Notes: generated by a model from the sequence alone, not told the origin. A DNA stretch of 64,000 nt from Escherichia coli O157:H7 (GCF_013167455.1 NZ_CP038328.1), one strand, 5' to 3'; shown: positions 1,355 to 50,047, counted from the stretch's first letter. Numbers and translations are program-made.

Positions 1355-2335
1355 ATGGCACAACGAGTACAGCTCACTGCAACGGTGTCCGAAAACCAAC
1401 TCGGTCAACGCTTAGATCAGGCTTTGGCCGAAATGTTCCCGGATTATTCACGTTCGCGAATAAAAGAATGGATCCTCGACCAGCGCGTGCTGGTTAACGG
1501 CAAACTTTGTGATAAGCCGAAAGAAAAAGTATTGGGTGGCGAGCAGGTTGCCATCAACGCTGAGATTGAAGAAGAAGCGCGTTTTGAACCGCAGGATATC
1601 CCGCTGGATATCGTCTATGAAGATGAAGATATCATCGTCATTAATAAACCGCGCGATCTGGTGGTACATCCTGGCGCGGGTAACCCGGATGGCACGGTAC
1701 TGAATGCGTTACTTCATTACTATCCGCCCATTGCTGATGTACCGCGTGCAGGCATCGTCCATCGTCTGGATAAAGACACCACTGGCCTGATGGTTGTGGC
1801 AAAAACCGTTCCGGCTCAGACGCGTTTAGTCGAATCTTTGCAAAGGCGTGAAATTACTCGTGAGTATGAAGCGGTGGCAATTGGTCATATGACCGCTGGC
1901 GGTACAGTAGATGAACCAATCAGCCGCCACCCGACCAAACGTACTCACATGGCGGTGCATCCGATGGGCAAACCGGCGGTGACTCACTATCGCATCATGG
2001 AACACTTCCGTGTGCACACGCGTCTGCGGTTGCGTCTGGAAACTGGACGTACGCACCAGATCCGCGTGCATATGGCCCATATCACTCATCCGCTGGTGGG
2101 CGATCCGGTTTATGGTGGCCGTCCGCGCCCGCCAAAAGGTGCTTCGGAAGCGTTTATCTCCACGCTGCGTAAATTTGACCGCCAGGCGCTTCATGCAACC
2201 ATGCTGCGTCTTTATCACCCGATCTCCGGTATCGAAATGGAATGGCATGCGCCTATTCCACAAGATATGGTGGAGCTGATTGAGGTGATGCGCGCCGATT
2301 TCGAAGAGCATAAAGATGAAGTGGACTGGTTATGA
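1355..2335 (+). CDS. rluD: 23S rRNA pseudouridine synthase RluD
   Basis: 326-aa ORF with S4 domain and RluA-family catalytic motif (HRLDKDTTGL). Confidence 0.95.
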   Translation: MAQRVQLTATVSENQLGQRLDQALAEMFPDYSRSRIKEWILDQRVLVNGKLCDKPKEKVLGGEQVAINAEIEEEARFEPQDIPLDIVYEDEDIIVINKPRDLVVHPGAGNPDGTVLNALLHYYPPIADVPRAGIVHRLDKDTTGLMVVAKTVPAQTRLVESLQRREITREYEAVAIGHMTAGGTVDEPISRHPTKRTHMAVHPMGKPAVTHYRIMEHFRVHTRLRLRLETGRTHQIRVHMAHITHPLVGDPVYGGRPRPPKGASEAFISTLRKFDRQALHATMLRLYHPISGIEMEWHAPIPQDMVELIEVMRADFEEHKDEVDWL

Positions 2336-3063
2336 GTAAGCTGATTGTCCCGCAGTGGCCGCTGCCAAAAGGTGTTGCGGCCTGTAGCTCTACTCGTATC
2401 GGCGGCGTGAGCTTGCCCCCGTATGACTCGCTCAACCTCGGTGCCCATTGTGGCGATAACCCGGATCACGTTGAGGAGAATCGCAAGCGACTTTTTGCTG
2501 CGGGCAATTTGCCTTCTAAACCGGTCTGGCTTGAGCAGGTACACGGCAAAGATGTGCTTAATCTTACTGGCGAACCTTATGCCTCAAAACGAGCAGATGC
2601 CTCTTATAGCAATACGCCCGGCAGGGTTTGCGCAGTGATGACTGCCGACTGCCTCCCTGTGCTGTTTTGCAATCGAGCGGGAACGGAAGTCGCCGCCGCT
2701 CATGCTGGCTGGCGTGGACTGTGCGCAGGCGTGCTGGAAGAGACAGTTTCCTGTTTTGCTGATAATCCAGAAAATATTCTCGCCTGGTTAGGGCCGGCAA
2801 TTGGCCCACGCGCGTTTGAAGTGGGGGCGGAGGTTCGCGAGGCGTTTATGGCAGTAGACGCCGAAGCGAGTACAGCTTTCATTCAGCATGGTGATAAGTA
2901 TCTGGCGGACATTTATCAGCTTGCCCGGCAGCGTCTGGCGAACGTGGGTGTTGAGCAAATTTTCGGCGGCGACCGTTGTACATATACGGAAAATGAGACT
3001 TTCTTCTCTTATCGTCGCGACAAGACCACCGGTCGTATGGCAAGTTTCATTTGGCTGATATAA
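2332..3063 (+). CDS. yfiH: YfiH/PgeF family laccase-domain protein (purine nucleoside phosphorylase / peptidoglycan editing factor)
   Basis: 243-aa ORF; start overlaps the rluD stop in an ATGA junction. Confidence 0.9.
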   Translation: MSKLIVPQWPLPKGVAACSSTRIGGVSLPPYDSLNLGAHCGDNPDHVEENRKRLFAAGNLPSKPVWLEQVHGKDVLNLTGEPYASKRADASYSNTPGRVCAVMTADCLPVLFCNRAGTEVAAAHAGWRGLCAGVLEETVSCFADNPENILAWLGPAIGPRAFEVGAEVREAFMAVDAEASTAFIQHGDKYLADIYQLARQRLANVGVEQIFGGDRCTYTENETFFSYRRDKTTGRMASFIWLI

Positions 3064-3124
3064 CCTAAAGAATCAAGACGATCCGGTACGCGTGATTTTC
3101 TTTTCACATTAATCTGGTCAATAA

Positions 3125-3155
3125 CCTTGAATAATTGAGGGATGACCTCATTTAA
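3125..3155 (+). promoter_or_regulatory. Candidate sigma32 heat-shock promoter for clpB
   Basis: ccttgaa (3125..3131), 14-nt spacer, cctcattta (3146..3154); resembles the CTTGAAA / CCCCATnT sigma32 consensus. Not validated. Confidence 0.45.
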
Positions 3156-3192
3156 TCTCCAGTAGCAACTTTGATCCGTTATGGGAGGAGTT

Positions 3193-5766
3193 ATGCGTCT
3201 GGATCGTCTTACTAATAAATTCCAGCTTGCTCTTGCCGATGCCCAATCACTTGCACTTGGGCACGACAACCAATTTATCGAACCACTTCATTTAATGAGC
3301 GCCCTGCTGAATCAGGAAGGGGGTTCGGTTAGTCCTTTATTAACATCCGCTGGCATAAATGCTGGCCAGTTGCGCACAGATATCAATCAGGCATTAAATC
3401 GTTTACCGCAGGTTGAAGGTACTGGTGGTGATGTCCAGCCATCACAGGATCTGGTGCGCGTTCTTAATCTTTGCGACAAGCTGGCGCAAAAACGTGGTGA
3501 TAACTTTATCTCGTCAGAACTGTTCGTTCTGGCGGCACTTGAGTCTCGCGGCACGCTGGCCGACATCCTGAAAGCAGCAGGGGCGACCACCGCCAACATT
3601 ACTCAAGCGATTGAACAAATGCGTGGAGGTGAAAGCGTGAACGATCAAGGTGCTGAAGACCAACGTCAGGCTTTGAAAAAATATACCATCGACCTTACCG
3701 AACGAGCCGAACAGGGCAAACTCGATCCGGTGATTGGTCGTGATGAAGAAATTCGCCGTACCATTCAGGTGCTGCAACGTCGTACTAAAAATAACCCGGT
3801 ACTGATTGGTGAACCCGGCGTCGGTAAAACTGCCATCGTTGAAGGTCTGGCGCAGCGTATTATCAACGGCGAAGTGCCGGAAGGGTTGAAAGGCCGCCGG
3901 GTACTGGCGCTGGATATGGGCGCGCTGGTGGCTGGGGCGAAATATCGCGGTGAGTTTGAAGAACGTTTAAAAGGCGTGCTTAACGATCTTGCCAAACAGG
4001 AAGGCAACGTCATCCTGTTTATCGACGAATTACATACCATGGTCGGCGCGGGTAAAGCCGATGGCGCAATGGACGCCGGAAACATGCTGAAACCGGCGCT
4101 GGCGCGTGGTGAATTGCACTGCGTAGGTGCCACGACGCTTGACGAATATCGCCAGTACATCGAAAAAGATGCTGCGCTGGAACGTCGTTTCCAGAAAGTG
4201 TTTGTTGCCGAGCCTTCTGTTGAAGATACCATTGCGATTCTGCGTGGCCTGAAAGAACGTTACGAATTGCACCACCATGTGCAAATTACTGACCCGGCAA
4301 TTGTTGCAGCGGCGACGTTGTCTCATCGCTACATTGCTGACCGTCAGCTGCCGGATAAAGCCATCGACCTGATCGATGAAGCAGCATCCAGCATTCGTAT
4401 GCAGATTGACTCAAAACCAGAAGAACTCGACCGACTCGATCGCCGTATCATCCAGCTCAAACTGGAACAACAGGCGTTAATGAAAGAGTCTGATGAAGCC
4501 AGTAAAAAACGTCTGGATATGCTCAACGAAGAACTGAGCGACAAAGAACGTCAGTACTCCGAGTTAGAAGAAGAGTGGAAAGCAGAGAAGGCATCGCTTT
4601 CTGGTACGCAGACCATTAAAGCGGAACTGGAACAGGCGAAAATCGCTATTGAACAGGCTCGCCGTGTGGGTGACTTGGCGCGGATGTCTGAACTGCAATA
4701 CGGCAAAATCCCGGAACTGGAAAAGCAACTGGAAGCCGCAACGCAGCTCGAAGGCAAAACTATGCGTCTGTTGCGTAATAAAGTGACCGACGCCGAAATT
4801 GCTGAAGTGCTGGCGCGTTGGACGGGGATTCCGGTTTCTCGCATGATGGAAAGCGAGCGCGAAAAACTGCTGCGTATGGAGCAAGAACTGCACCATCGCG
4901 TAATTGGTCAGAACGAAGCGGTTGATGCGGTATCTAACGCTATTCGTCGTAGCCGTGCGGGGCTGGCGGATCCAAATCGCCCGATTGGTTCATTCCTGTT
5001 CCTCGGCCCAACTGGTGTGGGGAAAACAGAGCTTTGTAAGGCGCTGGCGAACTTTATGTTTGATAGCGACGAGGCGATGGTCCGTATCGATATGTCCGAG
5101 TTTATGGAGAAACACTCGGTGTCTCGTCTGGTTGGTGCGCCTCCGGGATATGTCGGTTATGAAGAAGGTGGCTACCTGACCGAAGCGGTGCGTCGTCGTC
5201 CGTATTCCGTCATCCTGCTGGATGAAGTGGAAAAAGCGCATCCGGATGTCTTCAACATTCTGTTGCAGGTACTGGATGATGGGCGTCTGACTGACGGGCA
5301 AGGGAGAACGGTCGACTTCCGTAATACGGTCGTCATTATGACCTCTAACCTCGGTTCCGATCTGATTCAGGAACGCTTCGGTGAACTGGATTATGCGCAC
5401 ATGAAAGAGCTGGTGCTCGGTGTGGTAAGCCATAACTTCCGTCCGGAGTTCATTAACCGTATCGATGAAGTGGTGGTCTTCCATCCGCTGGGCGAACAGC
5501 ACATTGCCTCGATTGCGCAGATTCAGTTGAAACGTCTGTACAAACGTCTGGAAGAACGTGGTTATGAAATCCACATTTCTGACGAGGCGCTGAAACTGCT
5601 GAGCGAGAACGGTTACGATCCAGTCTATGGTGCACGTCCTTTGAAACGTGCTATCCAGCAGCAGATCGAAAACCCGTTGGCACAGCAAATACTGTCTGGT
5701 GAATTGGTTCCGGGTAAAGTTATTCGCCTGGAAGTTAATGAAGACCGGATTGTCGCCGTCCAGTAA
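3193..5766 (+). CDS. clpB: Chaperone ClpB (Hsp100 disaggregase), 857 aa
   Basis: ATG at 3193 after a ggagg RBS; N-terminus [18 protein letters not shown]; two AAA+ modules with Walker A motifs GEPGVGKT and GPTGVGKT. Confidence 0.95.
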
Positions 5767-6208: not shown

Positions 6209-7750
<1,542 letters not shown>

Positions 7751-7835
7751 CCTTAAAGAACTGTACTTTGCAGTGCTCACACAGATTGTCTGATAGAAAG
7801 TGAAAAGCAAGGCGTCTTGCGAAGCAGACTGACAC

Positions 7836-7911
7836 GTCCCCTTCGTCTAGAGGCCCAGGACACCGCCCTTTCACGGCGGTAACAGGGGTTCGAATCCCCT
7901 AGGGGACGCCA
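7836..7911 (+). tRNA. gltW: tRNA-Glu in the 16S-23S spacer
   Basis: 76-nt GTCCCCTTCGTCTAGAGGCCCAGGACACCGCCCTTTCACGGCGGTAACAGGGGTTCGAATCCCCTAGGGGACGCCA; TTCACGG anticodon loop context; encoded CCA end. Confidence 0.95.
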
Positions 7912-8104
7912 CTTGCTGGTTTGTGAGTGAAAGTCGCCGACCTTAATATCTCAAAACTCATCTTCGGGTGATGTTTGAGATATTTGCTCTTTAAAAATCT
8001 GGATCAAGCTGAAAATTGAAACACTGAACAACGAAAGTTGTTCGTGAGTCTCTCAAATTTTCGCAACATGATGATGAATCGAAAGAAACATCTTCGGGTT
8101 GTGA

Positions 8105-11007
<2,903 letters not shown>

Positions 11008-11099
11008 ACAACGCCGAAGGTGTTTTGGCGGATGAGAGAAGATTTTCGGCCTGATACAGATTAAATCAGAACGCAGAAGCGGTCTGATAAAACAGAATT

Positions 11100-11219
11100 T
11101 GCCTGGCGGCCTTAGCGCGGTGGTCCCACCTGACCCCATGCCGAACTCAGAAGTGAAACGCCGTAGCGCCGATGGTAGTGTGGGGTCTCCCCATGCGAGA
11201 GTAGGGAACTGCCAGGCAT
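11100..11219 (+). rRNA. rrfG: 5S ribosomal RNA
   Basis: TGCCTGGCGGCC...GAACTGCCAGGCAT, 120 nt. Confidence 0.95.
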
Positions 11220-24345: not shown

Positions 24346-26699
<2,354 letters not shown>

Positions 26700-26945
26700 T
26701 TAATTTACTAAACACGGTTTGGTCAGCATAGCATCATGTTGTGCGAATAAACACCTGCTATTTTAATATTTGTTACAGTGACTAAACACGCTGACGCAGG
26801 GCGGCGAGAAAAAGAGAAGTTACTGGCTGGTGGAGGATTAGGTGGTGAAATAAAAAGGCCGTTGGGTTACTCTTCAGGCAGTTAAATGGGCATTTCTACA
26901 CAGATAATGCGATGTTCAGATTCTGTAGACTTATAATGATAGATA

Positions 26946-27101
26946 ATGATCCGTCTACAGCATGACAAACAAAAACAGATGCGTTACGGAACTTTACAAA
27001 AACGAGACACTCTAACCCTTTGCTTGCTCAAATTGCAGCTAATGGAGTGGCGTTTCGATAGCGCGTGGAAATTTGGTTTGGGGAGACTTTACCTCGGATG
27101 A
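26946..27101 (+). CDS. rseD: rpoE upstream leader ORF (51 codons), stop overlapping the rpoE start
   Basis: ATG 26946 to TGA 27099..27101; reading frame traced by hand as MIRLQHDKQKQMRYGTLQKRDTLTLCLLKLQLMEWRFDSAWKFGLGRLYLG; ATGA overlap with the rpoE ATG at 27098. Too short for the ORF track. Confidence 0.5.
   Translation: MIRLQHDKQKQMRYGTLQKRDTLTLCLLKLQLMEWRFDSAWKFGLGRLYLG
26988..27015 (+). promoter_or_regulatory. SigmaE-dependent promoter (rpoE autoregulated promoter)
   Basis: ggaactt (26988..26994), 16-nt spacer, tctaa (27011..27015); matches the sigmaE consensus. Confidence 0.6.
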
Positions 27102-27673
27102 GCGAGCAGTTAACGGACCAGGTCCTGGTTGAACGGGTCCAGAAGGGAGATCAGAAAGCCTTTAACTTACTGGTAGTGCGCTATCAGCATAAAGTGGCGA
27201 GTCTGGTTTCCCGCTATGTGCCGTCGGGTGATGTTCCCGATGTGGTACAAGAAGCTTTTATTAAAGCCTATCGTGCGCTGGATTCGTTCCGGGGAGATAG
27301 CGCTTTTTATACATGGCTGTATCGGATTGCTGTAAATACAGCGAAAAATTACCTGGTTGCTCAGGGGCGTCGTCCACCTTCCAGTGATGTGGATGCCATT
27401 GAAGCTGAAAACTTCGAAAGTGGCGGCGCGTTGAAAGAAATTTCGAACCCTGAGAACTTAATGTTGTCAGAAGAACTGAGACAGATAGTTTTCCGAACTA
27501 TTGAGTCCCTCCCGGAAGATTTACGCATGGCAATAACCTTGCGGGAGCTGGATGGCCTGAGCTATGAAGAGATAGCCGCTATCATGGATTGTCCGGTAGG
27601 TACGGTGCGTTCACGTATCTTCCGAGCGAGGGAAGCTATTGATAACAAAGTTCAACCGCTTATCAGGCGTTGA
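27098..27673 (+). CDS. rpoE: RNA polymerase sigma factor sigmaE (ECF sigma-24)
   Basis: 191 aa, MSEQLTDQVLVERVQKGDQKAF...; sigma-70 regions 2 and 4. Confidence 0.97.
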   Translation: MSEQLTDQVLVERVQKGDQKAFNLLVVRYQHKVASLVSRYVPSGDVPDVVQEAFIKAYRALDSFRGDSAFYTWLYRIAVNTAKNYLVAQGRRPPSSDVDAIEAENFESGGALKEISNPENLMLSEELRQIVFRTIESLPEDLRMAITLRELDGLSYEEIAAIMDCPVGTVRSRIFRAREAIDNKVQPLIRR

Positions 27674-44500: not shown

Positions 44501-45443
44501 TGTCTGGTGGGCAGAAACTACCTGGCAGATGCAGCGCCTGCGTGACAACCCGGAGTGTGCCGATCAGGAGCATCAGGCGAAATCAAACGACGCCGATCCG
44601 GGCCTGAATGTGAAACTGTCGTTTGATATCAACGAAGATGTGGCAGCACCGTATATTGCCACTGGCGCACGTCCGAAAGTTGCTGTGCTGCGTGAGCAGG
44701 GCGTGAACTCGCATGTTGAAATGGCGGCAGCTTTCCACCGTGCAGGCTTCGATGCTATCGACGTGCATATGAGCGACCTGCTGGCTGGACGCACGGGCCT
44801 GGAGGATTTCCACGCCCTGGTCGCGTGCGGTGGTTTCTCCTACGGTGATGTGCTGGGTGCCGGTGAAGGTTGGGCGAAGTCTATCCTGTTCAATGACCGT
44901 GTACGCGATGAGTTTGCAACCTTCTTCCACCGTCCGCAAACGCTGGCGCTGGGGGTATGTAACGGTTGCCAGATGATGTCTAATCTGCGTGAACTGATCC
45001 CAGGTAGTGAGTTGTGGCCACGTTTTGTGCGCAATACCTCCGATCGCTTTGAAGCGCGTTTCAGCTTGGTTGAAGTGACCCAAAGCCCGTCGCTGCTGTT
45101 GCAGGGGATGGTGGGCTCGCAAATGCCGATTGCTGTCTCTCATGGTGAAGGGCGCGTGGAAGTGCGTGATGCGGCGCATCTGGCGGCACTGGAAAGCAAA
45201 GGGCTGGTGGCACTGCGCTATGTCGATAACTTCGGCAAAGTCACTGAAACCTACCCGGCTAACCCGAACGGTTCTCCGAACGGTATTACGGCGGTCACGA
45301 CTGAAAGCGGTCGAGTCACCATTATGATGCCGCACCCGGAACGTGTTTTCCGTACTGTCAGCAACTCCTGGCATCCTGAAAACTGGGGCGAGGATGGCCC
45401 ATGGATGCGCATTTTCCGCAATGCACGTAAGCAGTTGGGGTAA
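41556..45443 (+). CDS. purL: Phosphoribosylformylglycinamidine synthase (FGAM synthase, large single-chain form)
   Basis: 1295 aa from ATG 41556 ([26 protein letters not shown]...); C-terminal glutamine amidotransferase domain (GVCNGCQ). Confidence 0.97.
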
Positions 45444-45467
45444 GCCGTCAAACTCATTGGTTTTGCA

Positions 45468-45499
45468 GCCCGGATGAGGCATTCACGCCGCATCCGGCA
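45468..45499. repeat. REP (repetitive extragenic palindromic) element
   Basis: gcccggatgaggcattcacgccgcatccggca, imperfect palindrome of REP type. Confidence 0.6.
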
Positions 45500-45518
45500 T
45501 TAAATACAACCGCTATTA

Positions 45519-45546
45519 TAAGCTCCCAACTTCGGGAGCTTTTTTG
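45519..45546 (+). terminator. Rho-independent terminator downstream of purL
   Basis: agctccc-aacttc-gggagct followed by ttttttg. Confidence 0.7.
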
Positions 45547-45642
45547 TGTCTGTAAATCACGACAATGGGTGGTTTACCGTGTCGCTTTCTGGCGACACTT
45601 AAATGATTGATTTTATTGTAATCTAATAAGTTTTTCTTAAGT

Positions 45643-45660
45643 TGTCTCTTTTTAGCGACA
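45643..45660 (+). promoter_or_regulatory. Candidate GlrR-type activator site (TGTC-N10-GACA) upstream of glmY
   Basis: tgtc-tctttttagc-gaca, about 100 nt upstream of the sigma54 promoter element. Confidence 0.4.
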
Positions 45661-45749
45661 CAGTGGCTGATTTACATTCAAATAGCGGGGAAGCCATAAA
45701 CCCCTCAAAGCAACGTATAATCAGTACGTTACCAAACTATTTTCTTTAT

Positions 45750-45766
45750 TGGCACAGTTACTGCAT
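45750..45766 (+). promoter_or_regulatory. Sigma54-type (-24/-12) promoter of glmY
   Basis: tggcac-agtta-ctgca-t matches TGGCAC-N5-TTGCA; the glmY 5' end follows about 12 nt downstream. An overlapping sigma70-like -10 (cataat) is also visible. Confidence 0.65.
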
Positions 45767-45776
45767 AATAGTAATC

Positions 45777-45960
45777 AGTGGCTCATTCACCGACTTATGT
45801 CAGCCCCTTCGGGACGTGCTACATAAAATTCGAATGACGCACAACAAGGTGCCTGCCGTCCAACTTCTGATATCAGCGTAGCTATATCAACCATCGGGCG
45901 AAACGTCGAGTTAGGCACCGCCTTATTCCATAACAAAGCCGGGTAATTCCCGGCTTTGTT
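45777..45960 (+). ncRNA. glmY: GlmY small regulatory RNA (184 nt)
   Basis: From AGTGGCTCATTCACCGACTTATGTCAGCCCCTTCGGGACG... to the terminator hairpin aaagccgggtaattcccggctttgtt; sits between purL and glrK. Confidence 0.8.
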
Positions 45961-46018
45961 GTATCTGAACTTCCCCTCGGTTAGCATCAGGCTATTCGCG
46001 TCTGACGAGAGTAACACC

Positions 46019-47446
46019 TTGAAACGCTGGCCCGTTTTTCCCCGCTCATTACGACAACTGGTAATGCTGGCATTTTTGCTGATTCTGCTGCCCCTGTTGG
46101 TGCTGGCATGGCAAGCCTGGCAAAGCCTGAATGCGCTTAGCGACCAGGCGGCGCTGGTCAACCGCACCACGCTTATCGATGCCCGGCGCAGCGAAGCAAT
46201 GACCAACGCGGCGCTGGAGATGGAGCGTAGCTACCGTCAGTATTGCGTGCTGGATGACCCTACGCTTGCGAAGGTTTATCAAAGCCAGCGCAAGCGTTAC
46301 AGCGAAATGCTCGATGCCCACGCAGGCGTACTGCCAGACGATAAACTTTACCAGGCATTGCGTCAGGACTTGAACAATCTGGCCCAACTTCAGTGCAACA
46401 ACAGTGGTCCCGATGCTGCTGCTGCCGCGCGTCTGGAAGCCTTTGCCAGTGCCAATACCGAAATGGTACAGGCCACGCGCACAGTAGTGTTCTCTCGTGG
46501 GCAGCAACTTCAGCGTGAAATCGCCGAACGTGGGCAATATTTTGGTTGGCAATCGCTGGTGCTATTTCTGGTGAGTCTGGTAATGGTACTGCTTTTCACG
46601 CGGATGATTATCGGGCCGGTGAAAAATATTGAACGGATGATCAATCGGTTGGGGGAAGGGCGTTCTCTGGGCAATAGCGTTTCGTTCAGTGGACCGAGCG
46701 AGTTACGCTCGGTTGGGCAACGTATTCTTTGGTTAAGTGAGCGCCTGTCATGGCTGGAATCCCAACGCCATCAATTTTTAAGACATTTATCTCATGAATT
46801 AAAAACGCCACTGGCGAGTATGCGCGAGGGCACTGAATTACTGGCTGATCAGGTTGTCGGGCCGCTTACGCCAGAGCAAAAAGAGGTGGTGAGCATTCTT
46901 GATAGCAGCAGCCGCAATTTGCAAAAACTGATCGAACAACTGCTTGATTACAACCGTAAACAGGCGGACAGTGCGGTGGAACTAGATAATGTTGAGTTAG
47001 CACCGCTGGTGGAGACAGTAGTTTCTGCTCATAGCCTGCCCGCACGGGCTAAAATGATGCATACCGACGTCGATCTCAAAGCAACAGCTTGCCTGGCGGA
47101 GCCAATGCTGCTGATGAGCGTACTGGATAATCTTTACTCCAATGCGGTGCACTACGGGGCTGAATCCGGTAACATTTGCCTTCGCAGCAGTTTACATGGT
47201 GCGCGGGTTTATATTGATGTCATCAATACAGGCACGCCCATTCCGCAAGAGGAACGCGCCATGATCTTCGAACCCTTTTTTCAGGGAAGCCACCAGCGAA
47301 AAGGGGCGGTGAAGGGCAGCGGTCTGGGATTAAGCATTGCCAGGGATTGTATTCGCCGTATGCAAGGGGAACTGTATCTGGTCGACGAGAGCGGGCAAGA
47401 CGTTTGTTTCCGCATTGAATTACCGTCGTCGAAAAACACGAAATAA
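46019..47446 (+). CDS. glrK: Two-component sensor histidine kinase GlrK (QseE)
   Basis: 475 aa if started at TTG 46019 (MKRWPVFPRSLRQLVMLAFLLILL...); HAMP, HisKA H-box (LSHELKTPLAS) and HATPase domains. Start inferred. Confidence 0.85.
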   Translation: MKRWPVFPRSLRQLVMLAFLLILLPLLVLAWQAWQSLNALSDQAALVNRTTLIDARRSEAMTNAALEMERSYRQYCVLDDPTLAKVYQSQRKRYSEMLDAHAGVLPDDKLYQALRQDLNNLAQLQCNNSGPDAAAAARLEAFASANTEMVQATRTVVFSRGQQLQREIAERGQYFGWQSLVLFLVSLVMVLLFTRMIIGPVKNIERMINRLGEGRSLGNSVSFSGPSELRSVGQRILWLSERLSWLESQRHQFLRHLSHELKTPLASMREGTELLADQVVGPLTPEQKEVVSILDSSSRNLQKLIEQLLDYNRKQADSAVELDNVELAPLVETVVSAHSLPARAKMMHTDVDLKATACLAEPMLLMSVLDNLYSNAVHYGAESGNICLRSSLHGARVYIDVINTGTPIPQEERAMIFEPFFQGSHQRKGAVKGSGLGLSIARDCIRRMQGELYLVDESGQDVCFRIELPSSKNTK

Positions 47447-47610: not shown

Positions 47611-48324
47611 ATGCGACACATTTTTCAACGATTATTGCCCCGACGGCTGTGGCTGGCAGGGCTGCCATGTCTGGCATTGCTAGGTTGCGTGCAGAATCAC
47701 AATAAGCCAGCCATTGATACGCCAGCAGAAGAAAAAATTCCGGTTTATCAACTGGCTGACTATCTTTCTACTGAATGTAGCGACATCTGGGCGCTGCAAG
47801 GTAAATCAACCGAAACCAATCCGCTTTACTGGCTGCGGGCGATGGATTGTGCTGATCGTTTAATGCCTGCGCAGTCGCGTCAGCAAGCTCGCCAATATGA
47901 CGACGGCAGCTGGCAAAATACCTTTAAACAAGGGATTTTGCTCGCCGACGCCAAAATTACGCCATATGAGCGCCGCCAGCTGGTCGCGCGTATTGAAGCG
48001 TTAAGTACCGAGATCCCGGCACAGGTTCGCCCACTGTATCAACTCTGGCGCGACGGTCAGGCGCTGCAACTGCAACTGGCGGAAGAGCGCCAACGCTACA
48101 GTAAACTCCAGCAGTCCAGCGACAGCGAGCTGGATACATTGCGCCAGCAACATCACGTTCTACAGCAGCAACTGGAACTCACCACCCGCAAGCTGGAAAA
48201 CCTGACTGATATTGAACGCCAGCTCTCGACCCGCAAACCGGCTGGAAATTTCTCGCCGGATACGCCACACGAGAGTGAAAAGCCCGCGCCATCCACCCAT
48301 GAGGTCACTCCTGATGAGCCATAA
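47611..48324 (+). CDS. qseG: Lipoprotein QseG/YfhG, accessory to the GlrK-GlrR system
   Basis: 237 aa from ATG 47611 (MRHIFQRLLPRRLWLAGLPCLALLGCVQ...); lipobox; Gln-rich coiled-coil-like C-terminus. Confidence 0.8.
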   Translation: MRHIFQRLLPRRLWLAGLPCLALLGCVQNHNKPAIDTPAEEKIPVYQLADYLSTECSDIWALQGKSTETNPLYWLRAMDCADRLMPAQSRQQARQYDDGSWQNTFKQGILLADAKITPYERRQLVARIEALSTEIPAQVRPLYQLWRDGQALQLQLAEERQRYSKLQQSSDSELDTLRQQHHVLQQQLELTTRKLENLTDIERQLSTRKPAGNFSPDTPHESEKPAPSTHEVTPDEP

Positions 48325-49648
48325 ACCTGCGCATTTATTATTGGTCGATGACGATCCGGGATTGCTGAAACTGCTTGGCCTGCGCCTGACCAGCGAAGGC
48401 TACAGCGTGGTCACGGCGGAAAGTGGCGCTGAAGGATTACGGGTACTGAATCGCGAAAAAGTAGATTTAGTCATCAGCGACCTGCGGATGGATGAAATGG
48501 ACGGTATGCAGCTGTTTGCTGAAATCCAGAAAGTGCAGCCGGGAATGCCGGTAATTATTCTTACCGCGCATGGTTCTATTCCCGATGCCGTTGCTGCAAC
48601 ACAGCAGGGCGTTTTTAGTTTCCTCACCAAGCCTGTTGATAAAGACGCGCTATATCAGGCAATTGATGATGCGCTGGAACAATCCGCGCCAGCCACCGAC
48701 GAACGCTGGCGCGAGGCGATTGTCACCCGCAGCCCGCTGATGCTGCGTTTGCTGGAACAGGCGCGGCTGGTGGCGCAATCAGACGTCAGCGTTTTGATTA
48801 ATGGCCAGAGCGGCACCGGGAAAGAGATTTTCGCCCAGGCTATCCACAACGCCAGCCCGCGCAATAGCAAACCATTTATTGCTATTAACTGTGGTGCATT
48901 GCCTGAGCAATTGCTGGAGTCGGAGCTGTTTGGTCATGCGCGTGGCGCGTTTACTGGCGCTGTCAGCAATCGCGAAGGTTTATTCCAGGCGGCGGAAGGC
49001 GGAACGCTATTTCTCGATGAGATTGGCGATATGCCTGCGCCGTTGCAGGTCAAACTGTTGCGCGTGTTGCAGGAGCGTAAAGTGCGCCCGCTGGGCAGTA
49101 ACCGCGATATTGATATCAATGTGCGGATTATTTCTGCCACTCACCGTGATCTGCCAAAAGCGATGGCGCGCGGGGAATTCCGCGAAGATCTCTATTACCG
49201 CCTCAACGTTGTCAGCCTGAAAATTCCGGCACTGGCGGAGCGCACAGAAGACATTCCGCTACTGGCAAATCACCTGTTGCGCCAGGCGGCAGAGCGACAT
49301 AAACCGTTTGTCCGCGCGTTTTCCACCGATGCGATGAAACGCCTGATGACCGCGAGCTGGCCGGGTAATGTGCGCCAGTTGGTCAACGTGATTGAACAGT
49401 GCGTGGCGCTGACCTCATCTCCGGTGATTAGCGATGCATTAGTAGAGCAGGCGCTGGAGGGTGAAAATACGGCGCTGCCAACCTTTGTTGAGGCACGTAA
49501 TCAGTTTGAACTCAACTATTTGCGTAAGCTGCTGCAAATTACCAAAGGCAACGTCACCCACGCGGCGAGAATGGCGGGGCGCAACCGGACAGAATTTTAT
49601 AAACTGCTTTCCCGACACGAGCTGGATGCAAACGATTTCAAGGAATGA
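48314..49648 (+). CDS. glrR: Sigma54-dependent response regulator GlrR (QseF)
   Basis: 444 aa from ATG 48314 ([16 protein letters not shown]...); receiver, AAA+ sigma54-interaction (GESGTGKE, GAFTGA) and C-terminal HTH domains; start overlaps qseG by 11 nt. Confidence 0.9.

Positions 49649-49672: not shown

Positions 49673-50047
<375 letters not shown>

What the first reader, a model, noticed from the sequence alone, without database searches (positions are those of the whole stretch)
45600..45962. GlmY sRNA with sigma54-type promoter and a TGTC-N10-GACA activator-like site upstream of glrK
A 184-nt element (45777..45960) ending in a strong terminator hairpin matches the GlmY sRNA in position and sequence. 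It is preceded by a canonical -24/-12 element (tggcac-N5-ctgca) and a TGTC-N10-GACA palindrome at 45643..45660, compatible with activation by the adjacent GlrK/GlrR two-component system. The regulator genes and their sRNA target therefore sit together in this window.
Basis: partly seen in the sequence, partly recalled or inferred. Interest (0 to 1): 0.4.

Follow-up and report, generated by a model that had tools for sequence, protein, structure and literature searches.

The report
GlmY small RNA and its promoter
This is the well-studied E. coli small RNA gene glmY with its dual sigma-54/sigma-70 promoter and GlrR activator sites, sitting just upstream of the glrK-qseG-glrR regulator genes: real, correctly identified, and already known.

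Summary
The finding is confirmed and already known. The window is an E. coli O157:H7-type chromosome. Positions 45777..45960 (+) match the annotated K-12 glmY gene (b4441, 184 nt) base for base except one substitution. Rfam GlmY_tke1 matches 45777..45924 at 147 bits (threshold 33). Those 148 nt equal the published length of the processed, active form.

The sigma-54 element TTGGCACAGTTACTGCA (45749..45765) is identical to the 17-mer reported as the sigma-54 ChIP-seq site for glmY. The TGTC-N10-GACA site at 45643..45660 is real.

- There are three such sites (45547, 45580, 45643), the published GlrR sites ABS1-3. Two lie outside the reported start.
- Two perfect IHF consensus sites flank ABS3.
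- The published sigma-70 -10 hexamer CATAAT overlaps the -12 element.

glrK/qseE, qseG and glrR/qseF follow directly. In 22 enterobacterial species, 21 keep the sigma-54 motif at a fixed distance, and the two RNA stem-loops show compensatory changes.

From the literature, GlmY acts as a decoy for the adaptor protein RapZ. This spares GlmZ, which activates glmS. Nothing here departs from the K-12 paradigm. Interest is low.

The parts
45547..45564 (.). GlrR/QseF binding site ABS1 (TGTCTGTAAATCACGACA), -230..-213 relative to the glmY start
   Evidence: Exact TGTC-N10-GACA match. Identical in K-12. Aligned block conserved in enterobacterial orthologues. Published as one of three GlrR sites, and as dispensable for promoter activity (PMC3045617).
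45580..45597 (.). GlrR/QseF binding site ABS2 (TGTCGCTTTCTGGCGACA), -197..-180
   Evidence: Exact match. The best-conserved upstream block in the 22-species alignment (core GTC...GAC). Published as essential for sigma-54 promoter activity (PMC3045617).
45600..45612 (-). IHF site 1 (distal): AATCAATCATTTA on the minus strand, a perfect match to WATCARNNNNTTR
   Evidence: The two substitutions against K-12 (45603, 45605) fall on N positions of the consensus. The block TTAA...TTGATTT is conserved across genera. The paper places two IHF-like sites flanking ABS3 and shows that site 1 is essential (PMC3045617). Assigning this exact 13-mer to 'site 1' is my inference from its position.
45643..45660 (.).
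   Evidence: Exact match. Identical in K-12. Published as essential (PMC3045617).
45719..45731 (+). IHF site 2 (proximal): AATCAGTACGTTA, a perfect match to WATCARNNNNTTR
   Evidence: Identical in K-12. The ATCA....TTA block is conserved in the alignment. Its function was not individually tested in the paper.
45749..45765 (+). Sigma-54 promoter TTGGCACAGTTACTGCA (GG at 45751-2, GC at 45763-4)
   Evidence: Identical to the 17-mer listed as the sigma-54 ChIP-seq site for glmY b4441 (PMC4591121). TGGCA-N7-TGC lies at -27/-28 in 21 of 22 enterobacterial orthologues.
45764..45769 (+). [quoted passage not shown]
   Evidence: Visible in the sequence. Published as the characterised -10 that overlaps the -12 element (PMC3045617). 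Present at -13 in the window and 13 orthologues (E. albertii and the Citrobacter/Enterobacter-like group), absent in the other 8 (Mixta, Erwinia, Cedecea, Pantoea, three Photorhabdus, Edwardsiella). No convincing -35 was found.
45777..45960 (+). glmY, primary transcript of 184 nt
   Evidence: Coincides exactly with K-12 b4441, 183/184 identical. Rfam model position 1 aligns to 45777.
45777..45924 (+). GlmY core of 148 nt: stem-loops SL1 (about 45780..45842) and SL2 (about 45848..45919); the extent equals the published processed, active form
   Evidence: Rfam hit 147.1 bits. Minimum-free-energy fold. Consensus structure over 22 species: 35 pairs, 7 with compensatory changes. The lengths of 184 nt and 148 nt are stated in PMC4152352.
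45932..45960 (+). Intrinsic terminator hairpin AACAAAGCCGGG-TAATT-CCCGGCTTTGTT (followed by GTATCT)
   Evidence: 12-bp stem in the fold. Retained in the 12 closest orthologues. A-U is exchanged for C-G at the pair just outside the GCCGGG/CCCGGC core in two of them.
45959..45994 (+). qseEGF (glrK) sigma-70 promoter region. Transcription start inferred at about 45994. Candidate -10 TAGCAT at 45982..45987.
   Evidence: [quoted passage not shown] The coordinates are my inference from the TTG start at 46019 and were not tested.
46019..47446 (+). glrK/qseE sensor histidine kinase (475 aa, TTG start)
   Evidence: RefSeq annotation of the identical O157:H7 sequence. In NCBIfam it gives only generic histidine-kinase matches, all below the equivalog cut-offs. 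66-96% identical homologues sit directly downstream of glmY in other genera.
47611..48324 (+). qseG lipoprotein
   Evidence: NCBIfam equivalog NF007997, 359 bits against a cut-off of 234. Annotation.
48314..49648 (+). glrR/qseF, the sigma-54-dependent response regulator that binds ABS1-3
   Evidence: NCBIfam equivalog NF011695, 982 bits against a cut-off of 763, full length. Annotation.

Best explanation
Positions 45547..45960 are the glmY locus of E. coli in an O157:H7-type sequence.

Transcription.
- glmY is transcribed from 45777 by two promoters that share one start site.
- One is a sigma-54 promoter (TTGGCACAGTTACTGCA). It is activated from more than 100 bp upstream by phosphorylated GlrR/QseF bound to three TGTC-N10-GACA sites, with IHF bending the DNA in between.
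- The other is a weak sigma-70 promoter whose -10 hexamer (CATAAT) overlaps the -12 element. It gives basal expression.

The RNA.
- The 184-nt transcript ends at an intrinsic terminator and is trimmed at its 3' end to 148 nt.
- That RNA has two stem-loops resembling those of GlmZ, but no complementarity to glmS.
- It acts as a decoy that sequesters the RNase E adaptor RapZ. [quoted passage not shown]
- In EHEC the same QseEF-GlmY/GlmZ route also adjusts LEE4/LEE5 and espFU expression.

The regulator genes.
- The kinase, lipoprotein and regulator genes (glrK-qseG-glrR) lie immediately downstream and have their own sigma-70 promoter.

Basis of each step.
- Shown here: sequence identity, motifs and their positions, RNA family and structure, conservation, the gene neighbours, and the lack of glmS complementarity.
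- Taken from the literature on K-12 and not tested here: GlrR and IHF binding, the dual promoter, processing, the RapZ decoy mechanism, and the absence of read-through.
For: RNA identity and structure:
- Rfam GlmY_tke1, 147.1 bits, full model.
- Exact coincidence with K-12 b4441, 183/184 identical.
- Fold z-score -5.5 with a terminal hairpin.
- Consensus structure of SL1 and SL2 over 22 species, with 7 compensatory pairs.

Control region:
- Three clustered exact TGTC-N10-GACA sites, the only ones in 64 kb.
- The only exact TGGCAC-N5-YTGCW match in the window, identical to the sigma-54 ChIP-seq 17-mer for glmY.
- Two perfect IHF consensus sites flanking ABS3.
- TGGCA-N7-TGC at -27/-28 in 21 of 22 orthologous loci, with conserved ABS and IHF blocks.
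- The 12 substitutions against K-12 between ABS1 and the start site all avoid the consensus-specified positions of every element.

Neighbours and population:
- GlrR and QseG equivalog matches above their cut-offs.
- glrK homologues directly downstream of glmY in other genera.
- The locus is present in 5425 of 5426 complete E. coli genomes.

GlmY rather than GlmZ:
- The tail of K-12 GlmZ pairs with the glmS leader at -21.6 kcal/mol (5 of 500 shuffles do as well). The corresponding linker of the window RNA gives -8.6 kcal/mol (182 of 500 shuffles).

Published mechanism: PMC3045617, PMC4152352, PMC6075780.
Against: Nothing found contradicts it. Caveats:
- All functional steps are transferred from K-12 experiments to this O157-type sequence.
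- With the start at 45777, the GG/GC dinucleotides sit at -26/-25 and -14/-13, and CATAAT at -13..-8. That is one base further upstream than the textbook positions.
- No credible -35 hexamer was found for the sigma-70 promoter.
- The single sigma-54 pattern match is not significant by count alone (26 of 100 shuffles give at least one).
- The duplex-energy comparison is crude: it ignores intramolecular structure and the segments were chosen by hand.
Confidence: 0.97

Rival explanations
1. The RNA is the paralogue GlmZ, the base-pairing activator of glmS, rather than GlmY.
For: GlmY and GlmZ belong to the same Rfam clan (CL00011). A lower-scoring overlapping clan match was suppressed. The two RNAs share 57% identity overall, including the SL1 and SL2 cores.
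Against: - The best clan member is GlmY (147 bits).
- The sequence is 183/184 identical to glmY b4441, against 57% identity to glmZ b4456. Similarity to GlmZ stops after SL2.
- K-12 glmZ lies between aslA and hemY, not next to glrK.
- The linker of this RNA has no better-than-random complementarity to the glmS leader, whereas the GlmZ tail does.
Confidence: 0.01
2. The region encodes a small protein (mechanical ORFs 45642..45881 on the + strand, 79 aa, and 45787..46206 on the - strand, 139 aa), and the RNA-like features are incidental.
For: Both ORFs appear in the six-frame list.
Against: - Both start with TTG.
- Neither matches any Pfam family, even at E = 0.1.
- Neither the K-12 nor the O157 record annotates a CDS there.
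- Conservation across genera follows RNA stems with compensatory changes and indels in the loops, not a reading frame.
Confidence: 0.01
3. In this strain the sigma-54 and GlrR elements are vestigial, and glmY is in practice transcribed only from the overlapping sigma-70 promoter.
For: - A sigma-70 promoter does overlap and supplies basal expression in K-12 (PMC3045617).
- E. coli glmZ has lost sigma-54 control entirely.
- One orthologue sampled here (Edwardsiella hoshinae, L116) has no recognisable sigma-54 motif or ABS.
Against: - All consensus-specified positions of ABS1-3, both IHF sites and the -24/-12 element are intact and identical to K-12, where they are functional.
- glrK, qseG and glrR are intact.
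- Sigma-54 ChIP-seq gives one of the strongest signals in the table excerpt seen, at the identical 17-mer.
- EHEC virulence regulation through QseEF and GlmY is reported in the literature (PMC6075780).
Confidence: 0.02

Closest known systems
E. coli K-12 glmY (b4441; formerly sroF/tke1) with its overlapping sigma-54/sigma-70 promoter and GlrR ABS1-3 (Reichenbach et al. 2009, as cited in the papers read here; Gopel et al. 2011, PMC3045617)
   Same: - Same position between purL and glrK.
- 183/184 identical RNA.
- Identical ABS1-3, the same sigma-54 17-mer, CATAAT and IHF site 2. IHF site 1 is identical at all consensus positions.
- Same downstream glrK-qseG-glrR-glnB genes.
   Different: - 12 substitutions in non-consensus positions of the control region.
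- T instead of C at -2.
- U instead of A at RNA position 54. U is the state in all 21 other species sampled.
- A REP-like palindrome downstream of purL that is 17 nt longer.
- None of these touches a defined element.
GlmZ (Rfam clan CL00011), the paralogous sRNA
   Same: Homologous SL1 and SL2, which are the published RapZ-binding mimicry surface. 57% identity overall, about 63% over the first 148 nt.
   Different: - GlmZ carries a 3' tail complementary to the glmS leader; this RNA does not.
- In E. coli, GlmZ sits at a different locus (aslA-hemY) and has a sigma-70-only promoter (PMC3045617).
Other bEBP/IHF-dependent sigma-54 promoters (for example glnAp2 with NtrC, pspA with PspF) and the QseF-dependent rpoE P2 promoter
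   Same: - An enhancer-type activator bound more than 100 bp upstream, IHF-assisted looping and a -24/-12 promoter.
- rpoE P2 uses the same activator and is reported to share a start site with a sigma-70 promoter (PMC6358824).
   Different: The product here is a non-coding decoy RNA rather than an mRNA.

Membership tests
GlmY sRNA (Rfam RF00128 GlmY_tke1) | Covariance-model score at or above the curated gathering threshold, over the full model | tested here: met
   147.1 bits against 33; model positions 1-163 of 163; E = 8e-33.
GlmY sRNA (Rfam RF00128 GlmY_tke1) | Two stem-loops (SL1, SL2) supported by covariation, followed by a terminator hairpin | tested here: met
   The minimum-free-energy fold matches the Rfam consensus structure. 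RNAalifold on 22 species gives 35 pairs, 7 with compensatory changes.
GlmY sRNA (Rfam RF00128 GlmY_tke1) | Orthology to the experimentally characterised gene, and conserved synteny immediately upstream of glrK/qseE | tested here: met
   183/184 identical to b4441 with the same ends. glrK starts 58 nt after the 3' end. glrK homologues lie downstream of glmY in other genera.
GlmY sRNA (Rfam RF00128 GlmY_tke1) | No complementarity to the glmS leader, which distinguishes it from GlmZ | tested here: met
   Linker duplex -8.6 kcal/mol, reached by 182 of 500 shuffles. GlmZ tail -21.6 kcal/mol, reached by 5 of 500. This is a rough calculation. It agrees with PMC4152352.
GlmY sRNA (Rfam RF00128 GlmY_tke1) | 3' processing to about 148 nt, RapZ binding and stabilisation of GlmZ | not testable with these tools
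   Known for K-12 (PMC4152352). Here only the coincidence that the Rfam hit spans exactly 148 nt can be noted.
GlrR/QseF-activated sigma-54 promoter | -24 GG and -12 GC elements with canonical spacing, at the right distance from the start site | tested here: met
   TGGCAC-N5-CTGCA at 45750..45765; GG and GC are 12 bp apart; start 12-13 nt downstream of the GC. Identical to the ChIP-seq 17-mer for glmY.
GlrR/QseF-activated sigma-54 promoter | Upstream activator sites TGTC-N10-GACA (three, more than 100 bp upstream) | tested here: met
   Three exact sites at -230, -197 and -134, the only ones in the window. They match the published description.
GlrR/QseF-activated sigma-54 promoter | IHF sites (WATCARNNNNTTR) flanking ABS3 | tested here: met
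   Perfect matches at 45600..45612 (-) and 45719..45731 (+). The window-wide count is not above chance (6 found, 4.1 expected), so position and conservation carry the argument.
GlrR/QseF-activated sigma-54 promoter | Cognate enhancer-binding protein present | tested here: met
   GlrR equivalog NF011695, 982 bits against a cut-off of 763, encoded at 48314..49648.
GlrR/QseF-activated sigma-54 promoter | Dependence of transcription on rpoN, glrR, glrK, qseG and IHF | not testable with these tools
   Shown for K-12 in PMC3045617 and PMC6075780.

The most novel reading that the evidence does not exclude
The O157:H7-lineage substitutions might quantitatively retune GlrR/IHF-dependent glmY expression in EHEC. 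They comprise 12 substitutions between ABS1 and the start site, including six in the ABS2-ABS3 spacer around IHF site 1, four in the ABS3-IHF2 spacer and T for C at -2. In EHEC, GlmY/GlmZ also control LEE4/LEE5 and espFU. My evidence does not exclude this. However, every substitution avoids consensus-specified positions, so an effect, if any, would come through DNA bending or spacing context.
Probability: 0.05. Interest if true: 0.25.

Novelty: already known. Interest (0 to 1): 0.08.

Why it matters
It matters as a correct annotation rather than as a discovery.
- GlmY is the decoy RNA at the top of the GlmY/GlmZ/RapZ circuit, which keeps glucosamine-6-phosphate, and hence cell-envelope synthesis, in balance.
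- In EHEC the same circuit links QseEF signalling to virulence gene expression.
- The locus is a textbook case of two perfectly overlapping promoters for different sigma factors.
- One practical point: every PGAP-annotated RefSeq record I looked at (the O157:H7 record in full, and the feature column of all other listed hits) shows nothing at this position. A reader working from such annotations would see an empty 575-bp intergenic gap where a well-characterised regulatory RNA and its enhancer lie.

Tried and rejected
- The simple sigma-70/terminator scan of 45400..46100 found no sigma-70 promoter and only the purL terminator. It missed the weak published sigma-70 promoter, which has no good -35, and the glmY terminator, whose T-run is interrupted. 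It was uninformative, not contradictory.
- The genome-contig scan with GCTCATTCA-N(30-60)-TCGAATGA was too loose. About two dozen real Enterobacterales loci were recovered by BLAST filtering. The species sample is therefore arbitrary, not exhaustive.
- The first duplex calculation with full-length RNAs gave meaningless, very long duplexes and paired the GC-rich glmY terminator with the glmU 3' hairpin. I replaced it with a restricted calculation.
- I looked for the second GlrR-dependent promoter (rpoE P2) in the nadB-rpoE spacer. Two TGT-N12-ACA matches turned up, but no TGGC-N8-TGCW motif. rpoE is not mentioned in the main text of the ChIP-seq paper. I dropped this.
- Protein-coding and GlmZ readings were considered and rejected (see the rival explanations).

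Full report
**Origin of the window.** A 591-bp query covering the purL-glrK spacer is 100% identical to E. coli O157:H7 chromosomes. It is present in 5425 of 5426 complete E. coli genomes, always on the chromosome. Relative to K-12 MG1655 the window is in reverse-complement orientation. The gene order is mltF (-), purL, [spacer], glrK/qseE, qseG, glrR, glnB, hmp (-).

**Checking the observation.**
- *RNA.* Rfam GlmY_tke1 (RF00128) matches 45777..45924 on the + strand over the whole model, at 147.1 bits against a gathering score of 33.
- *Ends.* The K-12 record annotates ncRNA glmY (b4441) at 2691157..2691340. In a pairwise alignment this maps exactly to 45777..45960, with one substitution at 45830.
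- *Fold.* The RNA folds to -64.2 kcal/mol. Shuffles average -44.2 (z = -5.5). It forms two long stem-loops and a terminal hairpin with a 12-bp stem (45932..45960).
- *Promoter.* TGGCAC-N5-CTGCA is at 45750..45765. It is the only exact match to that pattern in the window.
- *Palindrome.* TGTC-N10-GACA at 45643..45660 is real.

- *Two more GlrR-type sites.* The window holds exactly three TGTC-N10-GACA sites, all packed within 114 bp: 45547..45564, 45580..45597 and 45643..45660 (0.58 expected per window). Relative to the start at 45777 they begin at -230, -197 and -134. Gopel et al. 2011 (PMC3045617) state that GlrR binds three TGTCN10GACA motifs more than 100 bp upstream of glmY. They report ABS2 and ABS3 as essential and ABS1 as dispensable. 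The finding's start coordinate (45600) therefore cuts the enhancer in half.
- *IHF sites.* The same paper describes two IHF-like sites (WATCARNNNNTTR) flanking ABS3 and shows that IHF and site 1 are essential for the sigma-54 promoter. The window has perfect consensus matches at 45600..45612 (- strand) and 45719..45731 (+ strand), on either side of ABS3.
- *Sigma-70 promoter.* The published -10 hexamer CATAAT, which overlaps the -12 element, is at 45764..45769.
- *ChIP-seq site.* The 17-mer TTGGCACAGTTACTGCA (45749..45765) is letter for letter the motif listed for glmY in the E. coli sigma-54 ChIP-seq study (PMC4591121). The value given there (200) is among the highest in the table excerpt I saw.

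**Differences from K-12.**
- Within the RNA there is one difference. Position 54 is U in the window and A in K-12. U is the state in all 21 other species sampled, so K-12 is the odd one.
- Between ABS1 and the start site there are 12 substitutions. Two fall on N positions of IHF site 1. The other ten lie outside every defined element, including T for C at -2.
- No consensus-specified base of ABS1-3, the IHF sites, the -24/-12 element or CATAAT is changed.
- Downstream of purL, the window has a complete REP-like palindrome where K-12 lacks 17 nt.

**Neighbouring genes.**
- Translation of 48314..49648 matches the NCBIfam GlrR equivalog at 982 bits (cut-off 763).
- Translation of 47611..48324 matches the QseG equivalog at 359 bits (cut-off 234).
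- Translation of 49709..50047 is PII/GlnB.
- The 46019..47446 product (TTG start) is a histidine kinase with no dedicated equivalog model. RefSeq names the identical protein QseE/GlrK.
- According to PMC6075780, qseEGF has its own weak sigma-70 promoter immediately downstream of glmY, starting 25 bp before the qseE start codon. That places the start at about 45994 by my inference. Read-through from glmY is reported as virtually absent, and the operon is not autoregulated.

**Related sequences.** One pattern scan of representative genomes was noisy. BLAST filtering recovered glmY followed by a glrK homologue in Escherichia albertii, Citrobacter, Enterobacter, Pluralibacter, Superficieibacter, Phytobacter, Cedecea, Mixta, Erwinia, Pantoea, Photorhabdus, Yersinia and Edwardsiella.
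- TGGCA-N7-TGC sits at -27 or -28 in 21 of the 22 sequences.
- Blocks corresponding to ABS1, ABS2, IHF1, ABS3 and IHF2 align across genera.
- CATAAT at -13 is present in the window and 13 orthologues (E. albertii and the Citrobacter/Enterobacter-like group). It is absent in the other eight (Mixta, Erwinia, Cedecea, Pantoea, three Photorhabdus, Edwardsiella). This reproduces the grouping published in PMC3045617.
- RNAalifold on the 22 RNAs recovers SL1 and SL2 with 35 pairs, 7 of which have compensatory double changes.

**GlmY or GlmZ.**
- K-12 glmZ lies between aslA and hemY.
- It is 57% identical to the window RNA, and the similarity ends after SL2.
- In a restricted duplex calculation, the GlmZ 3' tail pairs with the glmS leader (UUGUUGUC...ACAGACCUG against CAGGUUGACCGACAACG) at -21.6 kcal/mol. 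Only 5 of 500 shuffles do as well.
- The corresponding linker of the window RNA gives -8.6 kcal/mol, which is no better than shuffles (182 of 500).
- This fits the published statement that GlmY lacks complementarity to glmS and acts indirectly (PMC4152352).

**Mechanism (from the literature, not tested here).**
1. The kinase GlrK/QseE, with the lipoprotein QseG, phosphorylates GlrR/QseF.
2. Phosphorylated GlrR binds ABS1-3. IHF bends the DNA, and GlrR activates sigma-54 RNA polymerase at the -24/-12 promoter.
3. Sigma-70 polymerase uses the overlapping promoter and the same start site for basal expression.
4. The 184-nt transcript is trimmed to 148 nt, which is exactly the span of the Rfam hit.
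5. This RNA accumulates when glucosamine-6-phosphate is scarce. It sequesters RapZ and so protects GlmZ from RNase E.
6. GlmZ, with Hfq, then opens the glmS ribosome-binding site (PMC4152352).
7. In EHEC the same cascade modulates LEE4/LEE5 and espFU (PMC6075780).

**Rivals.**
- *Protein-coding reading.* The two mechanical ORFs over the region have no Pfam match and are not annotated anywhere. Rejected.
- *GlmZ reading.* Rejected on the grounds given above.
- *Vestigial sigma-54 control.* Very unlikely, because every defining base is intact and identical to the functional K-12 locus.

**Verdict.** The feature is already known in full detail. Interest is low (0.08). The only open reading is a possible quantitative effect of the O157-lineage spacer substitutions, which I rate at about 5%.

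Noticed in passing
L116 (Edwardsiella hoshinae NBRC 105699), about 2150..2610, - strand: The glmY orthologue directly upstream of a glrK homologue has no TGGCA-N7-TGC motif and no TGTC-N10-GACA or TGT-N12-ACA site within 260 bp. The purL 3' end lies unusually close to it. It was the only one of 22 species sampled without the sigma-54/GlrR architecture, whereas PMC3045617 describes the sigma-54 promoter as conserved in all species it examined.
   Followed up: partly
L013 (Escherichia albertii), 9693..9952: The three blocks that align to ABS1-3 all end in GACG instead of GACA, and the third also starts AGTC. No exact TGTC-N10-GACA or TGT-N12-ACA site exists, although the inner GTC...GAC palindromes and the sigma-54 motif are kept.
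   Followed up: partly
window 26697..26714 and 26771..26788 (nadB-rpoE spacer): Two TGT-N12-ACA matches lie upstream of rpoE (about 27098..27673). rpoE is the second published QseF/GlrR target (sigma-54 promoter rpoE P2), so both known GlrR targets lie in this window, about 18 kb apart. I found no TGGC-N8-TGCW motif in that spacer.
   Followed up: partly
window 45469..45506: A REP-like palindrome (GCCCGGATGAGGCATTCACGCCGCATCCGGC) sits between the purL stop and the purL terminator. It is complete here, but K-12 lacks 17 nt of it. This accounts for much of the divergence from K-12 at the 5' end of this spacer.
   Followed up: partly
window 45777..45960; RefSeq records H1-H37: Every PGAP-annotated RefSeq hit I saw lists no feature over glmY. 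The 426-bp query gave 'none' for all 25 listed records, and the O157:H7 PV15-279 feature table has nothing between purL and qseE. Only the separately fetched K-12 MG1655 record carries the ncRNA annotation.
   Followed up: partly
window 45830: GlmY position 54 is U here and in all 21 other enterobacterial sequences aligned, but A in K-12 MG1655. The laboratory reference carries the derived state. The position is unpaired in the predicted fold.
   Followed up: partly
window 60437..60452 (+): TGGCATTTTTGCTGCA, a good sigma-54-like -24/-12 motif, lies inside the ORF 60157..61155 (+). It is not listed in the main-text table of the sigma-54 ChIP-seq paper; the supplements were not checked.
   Followed up: partly
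window 3074..3212, 6209..11217, 29261..30092 (-), 32876..33090, 36503..36579 (-): Other Rfam gathering-level hits in the window: RyfD, a complete rRNA operon (16S, one tRNA, StyR-44, 23S, 5S), AsrC antisense to rseC, the rncO leader, and the OhsC antitoxin RNA.
   Followed up: no
window 45520..45546: The purL terminator hairpin (AAGCTCCCAACTTCGGGAGCTTTTTT) ends right at ABS1: the TGTC half-site starts at 45547. The glmY enhancer therefore begins immediately after the upstream gene's terminator.
   Followed up: no
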